This document shows positions 18,486 to 50,040 of a DNA stretch of 64,000 nt, one piece after another. The stretch is from NCBI RefSeq assembly GCF_046105845.1, contig NZ_CP151004.1; one strand, written 5' to 3'. A program made the translations under genes and the position numbers. Each line of letters begins with the position of its first letter. Positions within the stretch are counted from its first letter, which is position 1. The DNA comes from Escherichia coli. GTDB lineage: Bacteria > Pseudomonadota > Gammaproteobacteria > Enterobacterales > Enterobacteriaceae. Below the pieces are notes generated by a model. It was not told the origin of the DNA and searched no databases. It saw only the letters and a list, made by a program, of their open reading frames with translations.

Positions 18486-18793
18486 AACAATTTCCCTTCA
18501 TTGAATGAATGGAGATTTACCCAAAAACATTTCGGGCGGGATCGAGTATACACAACTAAAGCATGCGAATTACGGTGTGGGGAATTAGCGATGGGGTTTT
18601 AGGATAATTGGAATGAATATCAAATATAAGTTTCAACTTATATATAAATAAGATTAAAAATCAAAAAGTTAAAATAGAATCAAAAATAATCAACCTACGT
18701 ATTTTCCGAAATCAATCACGATTAAAAATTTATTTTAGGATTAAACTCACAGCATGATTTCCGTTAAATCACAGACAAGGGGATTTATCTGAT

Positions 18794-18827
18794 AAAAAAT
18801 GCCGACATAACGTCGGCATTTTTATTA
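18794..18827 (-). terminator. Terminator downstream of pgi
   Basis: Hairpin atgccgacataacgtcggcat flanked by A/T runs on both sides. Confidence 0.55.
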
Positions 18828-18838
18828 AGGTTATTTAA

Positions 18839-22614: not shown

Positions 22615-22887
22615 ATGGCACTCCCCCGTATTACCCAAAAAGAGATGACTGAACGCGAGCAGCGTGAACTTAAAACACTGCTGGATCGGGCGCGGATTGC
22701 GCATGGTCGCGTACTGACCAACTCCGAAACCAACAGCATTAAGAAAGAGTACATCGATAAATTAATGGTCGAGCGTGAGGCTAAAGCGAAAAAAGCCCGC
22801 CAGTTAAAGAAAAAGCAGGCTTATAAACCGGATCCTGAAGCGTCATTTAGCTGGTCAGCAAATACGTCGACGCGCGGCAGGCGCTAA
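22615..22887 (+). CDS. yjbD: Small basic protein of unknown function
   Basis: 90-aa ORF MALPRITQKEMTEREQRELKTLLDRA...; position between lysC and rluF. Confidence 0.75.
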   Translation: MALPRITQKEMTEREQRELKTLLDRARIAHGRVLTNSETNSIKKEYIDKLMVEREAKAKKARQLKKKQAYKPDPEASFSWSANTSTRGRR

Positions 22888-22936
22888 TGAACAATCAACG
22901 CCTGAGATTTTCACTCGTCTGTGTGGACACAATCTT

Positions 22937-22974
22937 CCCCTCACCCTAACCCTCTCCCCGAAGGGGCGAGGGGA
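22937..22974. repeat. GC-rich palindromic intergenic element (Box C-like)
   Basis: cccctcaccctaaccctctccccgaaggggcgagggga; family name from memory. Confidence 0.4.
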
Positions 22975-23019
22975 CTGTCCGAGCACTTTTTGGACGTTTT
23001 CATCAGTCTGAGGCGTTAA

Positions 23020-23892
23020 TCAGCGTCCCTTCTTTTTACGCCCCGGCGAGGTAAAACGCTTACCGTTGGACGCCGGGCGACCGCCTTTTTCCGCCGTTTT
23101 TTCCATCTTAACGACTGGACGTTTGATGCCCGCCGTTTTCGGTTTGGTCTTCGTTTTAGGTTTTGCCTCGGAAGAGGAATTTTCGATGAGCTTAAAGAGG
23201 TCGATTAACTCATCGTCGGTTAAATCGCGCCACTCACCCAGCGGAATGCCGCTTAAACTGACGTTCATAATGCGCGTACGCTCCAGCTTTTTCACTTCGT
23301 AACCAAAGTGCTCGCACATGCGACGGATCTGACGGTTCAGTCCCTGCACCAGGGTAATGCGGAAGACAAACGGCGCTTCTTTTTTGACTTTGCACTTTTT
23401 CGTCACCGTCCCGAGGATCGGCACCCCCGCCCCCATACCACGAATAAATTCATCGGTAATCGGTTTATCGACCGTCACCAGATACTCTTTCTCATGATCG
23501 TTACCCGCACGGAGGATCTTATTCACCAGATCGCCGTGATTGGTGAGGAAAATCAGCCCCTGGGAGTCTTTATCCAGGCGGCCAATCGGGAACACGCGTT
23601 TGCTGTGGTTAACGAAATCGACAATGTTATCGCGCTCGCCATCTTCGGTGGTGCTGACAATACCGACGGGCTTGTTCAGGGCGATAAGTACCAAATCTTC
23701 GGCTTCCCGAGGCTCAATCAACTGACCGTTTACTTTCACAACGTCGCCGGGTTTCACCTGATCGCCAATGGTGGCTCGCTTGCCATTAAGGAACACATTG
23801 CCTTGCTCGATATAGCGATCCGCTTCGCGGCGTGAGCAAATTCCGCTTTCGCTGATGTATTTATTTAAACGGACTGATGAGTCGGGCAGCAT
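23020..23892 (-). CDS. rluF: 23S rRNA pseudouridine synthase F
   Basis: 290-aa ORF; S4 domain then RluA-type catalytic core ([10 protein letters not shown]); Lys/Arg-rich C-tail. Confidence 0.9.
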
Positions 23893-24239
23893 AAATTCTC
23901 CTGTAAAACGCGGAATATACCGTACCTCTTAGCGGGGAAAAACAGGGTTATGCGGCAACGTCGAAATTAAATGTGATCTGCCACGCCTTTTATCACAAAA
24001 GTGTCTCCGGAAGTACGATGCAAATTTGCCTGGCAAAATAAGGATAATCAACATATTACGAATCGCTGCACACCTGTGCTGATGACTACTACGCAGAGAA
24101 ACAAATGTGCAAGAGAAAGCGCTATTTCTCCCCATGCAAAGAGTGAAAAATCGCTTTGAAAGGCCATCATGATGGGGTTATATCAGATCAAGCGGTGAGA
24201 AAGCGTATTTGCACAAATGTGCAGAACCAGGAGGCGGCA

Positions 24240-25187
24240 ATGGAAAACAGTGACGATATCCGTTTGATTGTGAAGATTGCCCAACTCTATTACGAACAGG
24301 ATATGACGCAGGCGCAAATCGCGCGCGAACTGGGTATTTACCGCACCACCATCAGCCGCTTGCTTAAACGAGGCCGCGATCAGGGAATTGTCACCATCGC
24401 CATCAACTATGACTACAACGAAAATCTCTGGCTGGAGCAGCAACTGAAGCAAAAGTTTGGCCTGAAAGACGTTGTGGTGGTGTCGGGAAATGATGAGGAT
24501 GAAGAGACTCAACTGGCGATGATGGGGTTACACGGCGCGCAACTGCTGGATCGCTTGCTGGAGCCTGGCGATATTGTCGGTTTTTCCTGGGGTCGCGCGG
24601 TGAGCGCACTGGTTGAAAACTTGCCGCAGGCGGGGCAATCGCGGCAGTTAATCTGCGTACCAATTATTGGCGGACCGTCCGGTAAACTCGAAAGCCGCTA
24701 TCATGTAAACACATTAACCTACAGCGCGGCAGCGAAGTTGAAAGGAGAATCGCATCTCGCGGATTTTCCGGCTCTACTGGATAACCCCTTAATTCGTAAT
24801 GGGATCATGCAGTCTCAGCACTTTAAAACCATCTCTGCCTACTGGGATAATCTGGATGTCGCCCTGGTGGGAATTGGCTCACCGGCCATTCGTGACGGCG
24901 CTAACTGGCATGCGTTTTATGGTGGTGAAGAGAGTGACGACCTGAATGCCCGCCAGGTTGCTGGCGATATTTGCTCGCGCTTTTTTGATATTCACGGCGC
25001 AATGATTGAAACGAATATGAGTGAAAAAACACTCTCTATCGAAATGAATAAATTAAAGCAGGCACGATATTCCATTGGCATTGCCATGAGTGAAGAAAAA
25101 TACAGCGGAATTATTGGTGCACTGCGTGGAAAATATATTAATTGTCTGGTAACGAATAGCAGCACAGCTGAACTATTACTGAAATAA
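24240..25187 (+). CDS. sorC: SorC/DeoR-family transcriptional regulator of the sorbose operon
   Basis: Start at MENSDDIRLIVKIAQLYY with AGGAGG Shine-Dalgarno (315 aa); N-terminal HTH (MTQAQIARELGIYRTTISRLL) and sugar-binding C-domain. Confidence 0.8.
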   Translation: MENSDDIRLIVKIAQLYYEQDMTQAQIARELGIYRTTISRLLKRGRDQGIVTIAINYDYNENLWLEQQLKQKFGLKDVVVVSGNDEDEETQLAMMGLHGAQLLDRLLEPGDIVGFSWGRAVSALVENLPQAGQSRQLICVPIIGGPSGKLESRYHVNTLTYSAAAKLKGESHLADFPALLDNPLIRNGIMQSQHFKTISAYWDNLDVALVGIGSPAIRDGANWHAFYGGEESDDLNARQVAGDICSRFFDIHGAMIETNMSEKTLSIEMNKLKQARYSIGIAMSEEKYSGIIGALRGKYINCLVTNSSTAELLLK

Positions 25188-37944: not shown

Positions 37945-41845
<3,901 letters not shown>

Positions 41846-41884
41846 TTAATTCGCCCCTCGCCTTACGGAAAGGGGCGTTGGTTG

Positions 41885-43189
41885 TTAGAACTGCGATTCT
41901 TCGGTGGAGCCGGTCAGCGCGGTGACTGAAGACGTACCGCCCTGAATAATGGTCGTCACTTTATCGAAATAACCTGTACCCACTTCCTGCTGGTGAGAAA
42001 CGAAGGTGTAACCATCTTTCGCGGCGGCGAATTCCGGTTGCTGCACTTTCTCAACATAGTGCTTCATACCTTCGCCCTGGGCATAGGCGTTTGCCAGGTC
42101 GAACATGTTGAACCACATGCTGTGGATGCCTGCCAGGGTGATGAACTGGAACTTGTAGCCCATATCCGACAGCTGCTGCTGGAAGCTGGCAATAGTTTTG
42201 TCGTCGAGGTTTTTCTGCCAGTTGAACGACGGCGAGCAGTTATAAGCCAGCAGTTTGCCCGGATATTTCGCGTGGATGGCTTGTGCAAAGCGACGCGCCA
42301 GTTCCAGGTCTGGCGTGGAGGTTTCACACCATACCAGGTCAGCATATGGCGCATACGCCAGGCCACGGCTGATCGCTTGCTCAATGCCCGCATGAGTACG
42401 GAAGAAGCCTTCGCTGGTACGCTCGCCGGTAATAAATTCGCTGTCATACGGGTCGCAATCGGAGGTAATCAGATCCGCCGCATCGGCATCGGTTCGAGCA
42501 ACCAGCAGGGTTGGAACGCCCGTCACGTCAGCTGCCAGACGCGCCGCGACCAGTTTCTGAATAGCTTCCTGAGTTGGCACCAGCACTTTGCCGCCCATGT
42601 GACCACATTTCTTCACTGATGCCAGCTGATCTTCGAAGTGAACTGCCGCTGCACCGGCTTCAATCATCGCTTTCATCAGTTCAAAGGCATTCAGGACACC
42701 GCCAAAACCGGCTTCCGCATCAGCAACGATCGGCAGGAAGTAATCGACATAGCGCGGATCGCCCGGCTCAATGCCCGCGGACCATTGGATCTGATCCGCA
42801 CGGCGGAAGGTATTGTTGATCCGCTCCACCACCGCTGGCACCGAGTTTGCCGGATAGAGCGACTGATCCGGATACATGCTGGCCGCCAGGTTAGCGTCCG
42901 CCGCTACCTGCCATCCCGACAGATAGACTGCTTCAATACCCGCTTTCGCCTGTTGCAGCGCCTGACCGCCAGTCAGTGCACCGAGGCTGTTGATGTAGCC
43001 TTTTTTCGACTCGCCGTGCAGCAGACGCCACATTTTCGCCGCGCCCAGTTGCGCCAGCGTGCATTCAGGATTGACTGAACCGCGTAATTTCACCACATCT
43101 TCCGCGCTGTATGGGCGAGTAATGCCTTCCCAACGCGGTTGAGTCCACTCTTTCTGTAATTCTTCAATTTGTTGTGTACGGGTTTTCAT
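41885..43189 (-). CDS. aceA: Isocitrate lyase
   Basis: Start at [15 protein letters not shown] (434 aa); catalytic KKCGH motif. Confidence 0.95.
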
Positions 43190-43218
43190 GTGCAGATGCT
43201 CCATAGTTATGTGGTGGT

Positions 43219-49847: not shown

Positions 49848-50040
49848 TCACAACCCGAAGATGTTTCTTTCGATTCATCATCGTGTTGCGAAAATTTGAG
49901 AGACTCACGAACAACTTTCGTTGTTCAGTGTTTCAATTTTCAGCTTGATCCAGATTTTTAAAGAGCAAATATCTCAAACATCACCCGAAGATGAGTTTTG
50001 AGATATTAAGGCAGGTGACTTTCACTCACAAACCAGCAAG

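What the first reader, a model, noticed from the sequence alone, without database searches (positions are those of the whole stretch)
22937..22974. GC-rich palindromic element between convergent yjbD and rluF
cccctcaccctaaccctctccccgaaggggcgagggga is a GC-rich near-palindrome resembling what I recall as the Box C repeat family. A related motif (gcccctcgcc...aggggcg) recurs in the aceA-aceK spacer.
Basis: partly seen in the sequence, partly recalled or inferred. Interest (0 to 1): 0.25.

Follow-up and report, generated by a model that had tools for sequence, protein, structure and literature searches.

The report
BoxC repeat inserted between yjbD and rluF
The GC-rich near-palindrome is an ordinary copy of the known E. 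coli BoxC repeat (also called PIT or TMECO, the "triplex motif"). It sits in a 132-bp segment that was inserted between two genes whose stop codons touch in most E. coli and in other enterobacteria.

Summary
On the minus strand it reads CCCTCGCCCCTTCGGGGAGAGGGTTAGGGTGAGGGG. That is an exact match to the published BoxC/PIT/TMECO consensus, type A with one mismatch. No match is expected by chance in the window. E. coli genomes carry a median of 17 related places each. The Box C reading is therefore supported, and the family is already known.

The side claim about the aceA-aceK spacer is not supported. That spacer holds a simple GC hairpin that shares only an 8-9-nt word with BoxC.

Comparison with other genomes adds four points:
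- The whole 132-bp yjbD-rluF spacer is absent from about two thirds of 5,426 E. coli genomes.
- It is also absent from essentially all of 80 other enterobacterial species, where the two stop codons abut or overlap. The spacer is therefore a derived insertion.
- The insertion is bounded by a 9/10 direct repeat, AGGCGYTAAT.
- Similarity to paralogous copies runs 37 nt past the core, as far as the inferred junction at 23010.

The insert differs from its K-12 orthologue by 7.6%, close to the synonymous rate of 0.089. K-12 has lost the consensus.

The most likely reading is a selfish, structure-prone repeat with no cellular function at this locus. How it moves is unknown. Interest is low.

The parts
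22937..22972 (-). BoxC / PIT / TMECO core, 36 nt: CCCTCGCCC (22972-22964), loop CTTCG, GGGAGAGGG (22958-22950), loop TTA, GGGTGAGGG (22946-22938), then G. Type A with one G.A mismatch ('A mm').
   Evidence: Exact match to the published consensus, one hit against 0.00 expected. Blocks located. It differs from K-12 copies 7, 11 and 15 of Table 1 in PMC4666352 by one loop base.
22921..22986 (.). BoxC proper: an imperfect palindrome of about 60 bp. The core sits between a left arm GTGTGGACACAATCTTC and a right arm GACTGTCCGAGCAC.
   Evidence: The arms (left GnGCnCGG..TTTC, right GACYGWYCGnGCnC) are shared by all 13 other copies aligned. The published BoxC length is 50-56 bp (PMC2267715).
22987..23010 (+). 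Right extension TTTTTGGACGTTTTCATCAGTCTG. It is shared by a subfamily of copies (ppc-argE, fimH-gntP, alx-sstT, yihS-yihR). In the aligned loci, similarity ends at ...CAGTCTG, the inferred insertion junction.
   Evidence: Paralogues match query positions 47-122 at 88-92%.
22904..22920 (+). Left extension GAGATTTTCACTCGTCT. It is a diverged counterpart of TGAGATTGCTGAYAA seen at the adk-hemH, ppc-argE and pstA-pstB copies, and roughly the inverse of the right end. It also forms a direct repeat, TTTTCACTCGTCTG (22908-22921) with TTTTCATCAGTCTG (22997-23010).
   Evidence: Read by eye. Direct repeat D1. This is the weakest part of the anatomy.
22879..22888 (+). Left copy of the junction direct repeat, AGGCGCTAAT. 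It contains the last two codons and the TAA stop of yjbD.
   Evidence: Filled versus empty alignment. Sequence.
23011..23020 (+). Right copy of the junction direct repeat, AGGCGTTAAT (9/10 identical to the left copy). It abuts the rluF stop codon.
   Evidence: Empty sites of other Escherichia read AGGCGTTAATCA.. once.
22879..22903 (+). Hairpin AGGCGCtaatgaacaatcaACGCCT at the left edge of the insert. It resembles the hairpin AGGCCGaatgaatatcCGGCCT that accompanies the adk-hemH BoxC allele.
   Evidence: Inverted repeat I3. adk-hemH sequence. The comparison was made by eye.
23012..23037 (+). Ancestral terminator-like hairpin GGCGTTAATCAGCGTC followed by CCTTCTTTTT. It lies inside the 3' end of rluF and is also present in empty sites. 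It is the probable yjbD terminator.
   Evidence: Consensus scan. The same hairpin folds in the empty site (L002).
22888..23019 (.). The whole 132-nt yjbD-rluF spacer, equal in length to the insertion/deletion polymorphism.
   Evidence: It is absent from about 3,650 of 5,426 E. coli genomes and from 67 of 69 cleanly scorable outgroup species.

Best explanation
The element is one copy of the dispersed enterobacterial repeat described three times, as BoxC, as the 'potential intrastrand triplex' (PIT) element, and as TMECO. It sits inside a 132-bp segment made of 122 bp of foreign DNA plus a 10-bp duplication of the junction. That segment was inserted exactly between the stop codons of the convergent genes yjbD and rluF in one part of the E. 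coli population. This part is shown.

The rest is inferred. The unit that moved is longer than the 36-nt motif, about 110-130 bp. It is an imperfect long palindrome with the three-block core at its centre. It spread as a non-autonomous, selfish repeat that lands at the 3' ends of genes. At this locus it has no cellular function and drifts neutrally.

Its only intrinsic property is structural. On single-stranded DNA or RNA the C-rich block can pair with either G-rich block to form a hairpin. The purine strand can fold into the intrastrand triplex that others have shown in vitro. This makes the site prone to polymerase stalling, slippage and small rearrangements.

The insertion mechanism is not established. 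It could be transposase-mediated, single-strand hairpin-mediated, or copying primed by microhomology.
For: Identity:
- Exact match to the published consensus (PMC4666352).
- Arms shared with 13 other copies.
- A median of 17 places per genome, range 1-29, in 5,425 of 5,426 E. coli genomes.

Insertion:
- 1,772-1,773 genomes carry the spacer. In the others yjbD and rluF are annotated back to back with 0 nt between them.
- Among 80 other species, the CDSs overlap by 4 nt (TTAA) in 37 and the stops abut in 30. None has a TMECO within 2.5 kb.
- The filled site is flanked by AGGCGCTAAT and AGGCGTTAAT, which occurs once in empty sites.
- In the aligned paralogous loci similarity stops at 23010, the inferred junction.

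Neutrality:
- Window versus K-12 differs at 10 of 132 positions (7.6%), against pS = 0.089 for lysC, yjbD and rluF together.
- Two of the K-12 changes destroy the middle block.

Preference for 3' ends:
- 6 of the 9 K-12 loci fetched lie between convergent genes.

No known RNA family:
- No Rfam hit at gathering score, and only noise at E-values up to 10.

Published experiments, as reported in PMC4666352:
- A triplex forms in vitro but is not seen by in vivo DMS footprinting.
- No promoter or terminator activity was found.
Against: - No transposase or other partner is known, and none was sought here.
- Clean filled/empty pairs were not found at the four other polymorphic loci examined. At ppc-argE and adk-hemH the BoxC allele and a REP or hairpin allele replace each other. 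At fimH-gntP and yihS-yihR the 'empty' allele keeps a short diverged stretch. The 10-bp repeat is therefore so far a single case, and could reflect microhomology rather than a target-site duplication.
- Two loci (aaeR-tldD, zntA-tusA) are fixed in nearly all E. coli. This is consistent with old insertions but also with retention by selection.
- Neutrality rests on one pairwise comparison of 132 nt.
- The left end of the unit is poorly defined.
Confidence: 0.8

Rival explanations
1. The element is a functional 3'-end signal: a bidirectional transcription terminator or an mRNA-stabilising hairpin serving the convergent genes yjbD and rluF.
For: It sits between convergent genes, as do most other copies fetched. 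The RNA hairpins are stable: -19.7 kcal/mol on the plus strand and -25.7 on the minus strand, with z-scores of -1.7 and -2.5. The whole spacer folds at -48.7 with z = -3.8. A terminator-like site lies in the right extension at 22976-22996.
Against: No T-run follows the core hairpin on either strand. The scan found 2 terminator-like sites in the region against 1.2 expected, and neither is the core. Most E. coli and all other genera manage without the element, and there the ancestral hairpin plus T-run inside rluF is retained. Divergence is at the synonymous rate, and K-12 has lost a block. Published tests found no terminator or promoter activity for PIT elements (reported in PMC4666352).
Confidence: 0.08
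2. The spacer is ancestral. The 'empty' sites are deletions caused by instability of the triplex motif, which is how Holder et al. 2015 read presence/absence.
For: A 10-bp direct repeat would allow precise slippage deletion. Deletion between repeated CCCTCTCCC blocks is visible at alx-sstT. PMC4666352 reports excess variability around TMECO loci.
Against: 67 of 69 cleanly scorable outgroup species, including E. albertii, E. whittamii and three other Escherichia lineages, have abutting or overlapping stops. Independent, exact deletion in all of them is not parsimonious. The overlap form TTAA in distant genera cannot be derived from the filled form by one deletion. Secondary reversion by deletion within E. 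coli is still possible.
Confidence: 0.05
3. It is a chance GC-rich palindrome with no relation to a repeat family.
For: None beyond its small size.
Against: 0.00 matches are expected in shuffles. There are about 84,000 related places in 5,425 genomes. Flanks are shared with paralogues at 83-92% over 76-94 nt.
Confidence: 0.01

Closest known systems
BoxC (Bergler et al. 1992; Bachellier et al. 1999, both cited from memory), equal to the PIT element (Hoyne et al. 2000; Hoyne & Maher 2002, as cited in PMC4666352) and to TMECO (Holder et al. 2015, PMC4666352)
   Same: Exact consensus match, subtype A 'mm' (the commonest in K-12), intergenic location, flanking arms, and copy number of about 17-23 per genome.
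   Different: Loop 1 is CTTCG, one base different from any of the 23 K-12 copies listed. This locus is not in the K-12 table because the K-12 orthologue has two substitutions in the middle block. The published descriptions give a 36-56-nt unit and read presence/absence as instability. Here the moved unit is about 122-132 bp and the polarity is insertion.
Bacterial MITEs (for example ERIC/IRU, NEMIS/Correia, RUP)
   Same: Small, non-coding, multi-copy and intergenic. It is a long imperfect palindrome with roughly inverted ends (TSAGAYTGMTGA...), shows presence/absence polymorphism, and has a short direct repeat at the one clean junction.
   Different: The terminal inverted repeats are weak (about 11-14 of 15-17). 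No cognate transposase is known. A target duplication is seen at one locus only. Other loci show allele replacement rather than simple insertion.
REP/BIME elements and their RAYT (IS200/IS605-like) transposases
   Same: GC-rich extragenic palindromes at the 3' ends of genes. They occupy the same kinds of sites: REP alleles alternate with BoxC alleles at ppc-argE, and a REP-like insert fills the same yjbD-rluF junction in a Pluralibacter genome.
   Different: There is no sequence similarity to the REP consensus. The architecture has three blocks rather than a two-arm hairpin. No RAYT association is known.

Membership tests
BoxC / PIT / TMECO | Sequence matches 5'-CCCTCNCCC N3-6 GGGNGAGGG N3 GGGNGAGGG-3' | tested here: met
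   One exact match at 22938-22972 on the minus strand, with 0.00 expected. The consensus is quoted from PMC4666352.
BoxC / PIT / TMECO | Dispersed multi-copy repeat of E. coli genomes (about 20-30 copies) | tested here: met
   Median 17 places per genome, range 1-29, in 5,425 of 5,426 genomes. 23 strict copies in MG1655 according to PMC4666352. 22-32 according to PMC2267715.
BoxC / PIT / TMECO | Strictly intergenic location | tested here: met
   Between the yjbD stop at 22887 and the rluF stop at 23020.
BoxC / PIT / TMECO | Core embedded in a 50-56-bp imperfect palindrome shared by the copies | tested here: met
   The arms GnGCnCGG..TTTC and GACYGWYCGnGCnC are conserved in 14 aligned copies. 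The original 1992 consensus could not be read, so the comparison is with K-12 copies, not with that consensus.
BoxC / PIT / TMECO | The purine strand folds into an intrastrand triplex in vitro | not testable with these tools
   The blocks are identical to the 'type A mm' oligonucleotide characterised by CD and NMR in PMC4666352. Only a loop base differs. The nearest-neighbour folding used here models hairpins only.
MITE (non-autonomous transposon) | Defined terminal inverted repeats shared by the copies | tested here: inconclusive
   The right end ...TTGTCATCAGTCTG is sharp in 5 loci. The left end TGAGATTGCTGAYAA is seen in 3-4 loci at variable distance and is only about 70% inverse-complementary to the right end (read by eye).
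MITE (non-autonomous transposon) | Target-site duplication flanking insertions, with matching empty sites | tested here: inconclusive
   At yjbD-rluF there is a 9/10 repeat of 10 bp, with empty sites in E. coli and outgroups. It was not found at ppc-argE, adk-hemH, fimH-gntP or yihS-yihR.
MITE (non-autonomous transposon) | Related autonomous element or transposase with matching ends | not tested
   No search for IS elements with TSAGAYTGMTGA-like ends was made.
Rho-independent terminator | GC-rich hairpin immediately followed by a U-run | tested here: not met
   The core hairpin is followed by ACTGTCC on the plus strand and TTAGGGTG/AAGATTG on the minus strand. The scan does not call it.
REP / BIME | Similarity to the REP consensus (GCCGGATGCGGCG... 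type) | tested here: not met
   REP units seen at K-12 aceA-aceK and at EC958 ppc-argE do not align with this element.

The most novel reading that the evidence does not exclude
BoxC is not merely an 'unstable triplex motif'. On this reading it is the conserved centre of a mobile, MITE-like unit of about 110-130 bp that inserts at stop-codon or terminator hairpins and leaves a direct repeat of about 10 bp. The variability reported around TMECO loci would then largely reflect insertion and allele replacement rather than motif-induced deletion. The yjbD-rluF junction would be the cleanest filled/empty pair documenting this, with the ancestral state of touching stop codons fixed across the Enterobacteriaceae.
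Probability: 0.35. Interest if true: 0.45.

Novelty: already known. Interest (0 to 1): 0.15.

Why it matters
As an annotation it matters little, because it is one more copy of a repeat family known since 1992.

The locus has modest value as a natural experiment. The ancestral state is unambiguous: two convergent genes whose stop codons touch or overlap in about 70 species. Because of that, the polarity of a BoxC presence/absence polymorphism can be read here, and it is an insertion. The published interpretation of such polymorphisms is motif-induced deletion or instability.

The locus also shows that the unit that moved is roughly three times longer than the 36-nt 'triplex motif'. Finally, the copy has drifted at the neutral rate, which argues against a conserved cellular role for the triplex-forming blocks at this site.

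Tried and rejected
- **Rfam.** No family matched at gathering thresholds over the whole window. A permissive scan of 22800-23100 gave only noise (Antizyme_FSE, 20 bits against a gathering score of 40).
- **aceA-aceK spacer as a second copy.** Rejected. It is a 48-nt spacer with one hairpin, where K-12 has 182 nt of REP units.
- **Core as a terminator or promoter.** Rejected. There are no promoter-like sites, and the terminator-like sites lie outside the core.
- **Further clean filled/empty pairs.** Six other loci were searched. Two are fixed in E. coli. Four are polymorphic but are replacement or partly diverged alleles, so they neither confirm nor exclude a target duplication.
- **Automatic detection of the junction repeat.** The repeat finder with a 6-nt seed did not report the 10-bp repeat, because the mismatch splits it into 5 + 4 nt. 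The repeat rests on the alignment and the sequence.
- **43-aa ORF at 22855-22986 (minus strand).** Dismissed as an artefact of the GC-rich repeat.
- **Original papers.** The Bergler 1992 and Hoyne 2000/2002 papers were not available in the library. Their content is taken second-hand from PMC4666352 or from memory, and is marked as such.

Full report
**Observation.** It lies in a 132-nt spacer between two convergent ORFs. The first, at 22615-22887 on the plus strand, encodes 90 aa. The second, at 23020-23892 on the minus strand, encodes 290 aa. RefSeq annotation of matching E. coli records names them yjbD and rluF.

The window is an E. coli-type chromosome. lysC, with its lysine riboswitch, lies upstream, and aceK, aceA and an rRNA operon lie downstream. 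It is only 98.5-98.7% identical over 24 kb to the best of 5,426 complete E. coli genomes.

The arms 22936-22946 and 22964-22974 are 91% complementary. The 22-mer CCCTCACCCTAACCCTCTCCCC occurs once with up to three mismatches allowed, against 0.00 expected.

**Identity.** Read on the minus strand, the element is CCCTCGCCC-CTTCG-GGGAGAGGG-TTA-GGGTGAGGG-G. Holder et al. 2015 (PMC4666352) give the E. coli 'TMECO' consensus as CCCTCNCCC N3-6 GGGNGAGGG N3 GGGNGAGGG. They state that these are the elements first called BoxC in the 1990s and rediscovered as PIT (potential intrastrand triplex) elements in 2000.

The consensus matches the window exactly once, at 22938-22972 on the minus strand, with 0.00 expected. 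By their nomenclature this is type A (loop 2 = TTA) with one mismatched triplet. That is the commonest subtype, with 13 of 23 copies in MG1655. The window copy differs from K-12 copies 7, 11 and 15 by one loop base.

An 86-nt or 122-nt query around the element finds about 84,000 places in 5,425 of 5,426 E. coli genomes. The median is 17 per genome and the range 1-29. Di Nocera's survey lists BoxC as a 50-56-bp family with 22-32 copies (PMC2267715).

**K-12.** MG1655 has the same 132-nt spacer. Its middle block reads CCCTTTTCC instead of CCCTCTCCC. This explains why the locus is missing from the table of 23 strict TMECO copies, which has nothing between 4,070,452 and 4,314,285. RefSeq annotates no feature in the spacer.

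**The spacer is an insertion.** A 501-nt query across the locus is matched contiguously in only 1,772 genomes. In the rest the match spans 368-369 nt, which is 132 nt less. In two such genomes, MS14384 and an APEC O2:K1 strain, yjbD ends at position 488 and rluF at 489. There is no intergenic nucleotide.

The alignment shows ...GGC AGGCGCTGAT TAGCGCC... in empty sites. Filled sites read ...GGC AGGCGCTAAT [122 nt] AGGCGTTAAT CAGCGTC.... The extra DNA is therefore bounded by a 9/10 direct repeat of 10 bp that occurs once in the empty site.

Polarity was tested with 80 loci from other species that encode YjbD relatives. The results were as follows:
- In 37 species the two CDSs overlap by 4 nt (TTAA).
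- In 30 species the stops abut. These include E. albertii, E. whittamii and three other Escherichia lineages.
- One species has 3 nt between the stops.
- One species has 125 nt.
- Eleven species could not be scored cleanly.
- None of the 80 has a TMECO within 2.5 kb.

Other Escherichia read AGGCGTTAATCA(A/G)CG(C/T)C, which is the sequence of the right-hand junction of the window. The empty state is therefore ancestral, and the 132 bp is a derived insertion carried by about one third of sequenced E. coli.

**Extent of the repeated unit.** In genomes that lack the insert, the best match to the 122-nt insert is a paralogue. It covers query positions 47-122 (window 22935-23010) at 88-92%, or positions 29-122 at 83%.

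Fourteen copies from 13 loci were aligned. All share ..TTC + core + GACYGWYCGnGCnC, with a left arm GnGCnCGG. This corresponds to the roughly 56-60-bp BoxC palindrome, at about 22921-22986 in the window.

A subfamily carries a further right extension, tTTTTtGAcTTTGTCATCAGTCTG. Its members are ppc-argE, fimH-gntP, alx-sstT, yihS-yihR and the window copy. In every aligned locus the extension ends sharply at ...CAGTCTG, which is window 23010, the inferred junction.

On the left, TGAGATTGCTGAYAA recurs at adk-hemH, ppc-argE and pstA-pstB. The window has TGAGATTTTCAC. This motif is roughly the inverse of the right end (read by eye). The left edge of the insert is a hairpin, AGGCGCtaatgaacaatcaACGCCT (22879-22903). 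It resembles the hairpin that accompanies the adk-hemH BoxC allele.

The moved unit is thus about 110-130 bp, an imperfect long palindrome. The whole spacer folds at -48.7 kcal/mol with z = -3.8. Its left boundary is less certain than its right.

**Other loci.** Six of the nine K-12 loci fetched lie between convergent genes. The rest lie at 3' ends within or between operons.
- aaeR-tldD and zntA-tusA are fixed in nearly all E. coli.
- Four loci are polymorphic but not cleanly so.
- At ppc-argE a 163-nt BoxC allele alternates with REP alleles between the same flanks.
- At adk-hemH a 157-nt BoxC allele alternates with a 53-nt hairpin allele.
- At fimH-gntP and yihS-yihR the short alleles keep a diverged stretch.
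- At alx-sstT one allele looks like a deletion between repeated CCCTCTCCC blocks of an inverted pair. This is the 'palindrome effect' of Holder et al..

The 10-bp junction repeat is therefore so far unique to this locus. It may be a target-site duplication or a recombination microhomology.

**Function.** The core hairpin has no adjacent T-run. The consensus scan calls two terminator-like sites in the region, against 1.2 expected. One lies in the right extension (22976-22996). The other is the ancestral hairpin GGCGTTAATCAGCGTC + CCTTCTTTTT inside the 3' end of rluF, which is also present in empty sites. There are no promoter-like sites and no Rfam family.

The insert differs between the window and K-12 at 10 of 132 positions (7.6%). 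This is close to the synonymous divergence of the flanking genes (pS 0.089; pN 0.0056). Two of the changes abolish a triplex block in K-12.

Published work, as summarised in PMC4666352, found the following:
- A stable triplex forms in isolated purine strands.
- No triplex signal was seen in duplex DNA or by in vivo DMS footprinting.
- PIT elements showed no promoter or terminator activity.
- Sequence variability around TMECO loci is elevated.

The best-supported reading is a selfish, structure-prone repeat that is a neutral passenger at this locus. A terminator or stabiliser role is a low-probability rival. 'Ancestral spacer, repeatedly deleted' is contradicted by the outgroups.

**The aceA-aceK claim.** The spacer at 41837-41884 is 48 nt, between aceA (41885-43204, minus strand) and aceK (40100-41836, minus strand). 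It forms one hairpin at -19 kcal/mol.

It shares only GGCGAGGGG and AAGGGGCG with BoxC. The alignment score of 18 is reached by 1.6% of random windows. It contains no GGGNGAGGG block. The quoted 10-mer is not over-represented, with 4 found against 4.64 expected. K-12 has 182 nt of REP units at this position. This is not a BoxC relative.

**Verdict.** The secondary claim is rejected. The family is already known, so overall interest is low.

The one point beyond the literature read here is the polarity and size of the event. About 122 bp of foreign DNA plus a 10-bp repeat was inserted at a junction that is stop-to-stop in other enterobacteria. This suggests BoxC is or was mobile as a longer unit, but on a single clean locus it does not prove it.

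Noticed in passing
L084:2771-2895 (Pluralibacter sp. UBA7423 MAG): The only outgroup with a long yjbD-rluF spacer (125 nt). It is filled with REP/BIME-like palindromes (GCCTGATGGCGCTGCGCTTATCAGGCCTAC ... GTAGGCCGGGTAAGGCG...). This is an independent insertion of a different repeat family at the same stop-to-stop junction.
   Followed up: partly
window 41837-41884: The aceA-aceK spacer is only 48 nt with a single GC hairpin. K-12 MG1655 has 182 nt made of REP units at the same place, so this is another intergenic 'cassette' polymorphism.
   Followed up: partly
L085/L100/L101 (ppc-argE) and L092/L104 (adk-hemH): BoxC-bearing alleles and REP- or hairpin-bearing alleles replace each other between identical flanks, without shared junction repeats. 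In K-12 the hairpin that looks like the adk terminator (AGGCCGgatattcattCGGCCTTTT) belongs to the BoxC allele and is absent from the alternative allele.
   Followed up: partly
window 22879-23037; L002:481-506: In empty sites the yjbD stop and the rluF stop sit in the loop and stem of one small hairpin (GGCGCTGATTAGCGCC). It is followed by CCTTCTTTTT, which is encoded by the Lys codons at the rluF C-terminus. A terminator-like signal is thus embedded in the coding end of the convergent gene. In more distant genera the two stops share the palindrome TTAA.
   Followed up: partly
E. coli genomes: Copy number of detectable BoxC relatives varies widely. Some genomes have only 2-5 places and others 13-29. 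The low-count genomes that were inspected at the yjbD-rluF locus all have the empty site.
   Followed up: no
window 24156-25187: A SorC/DeoR-type regulator ORF lies directly downstream of rluF. K-12 has pepE next to rluF, so the window comes from a strain with extra genes here. Matching genomes also annotate espL4 in this 24-kb stretch.
   Followed up: no
window 18682-18830 and 49855-49963: Rfam hits to STnc430 (89 bits) and StyR-44 (125 bits, next to the 23S rRNA gene). These are ordinary enterobacterial features unrelated to the finding.
   Followed up: no
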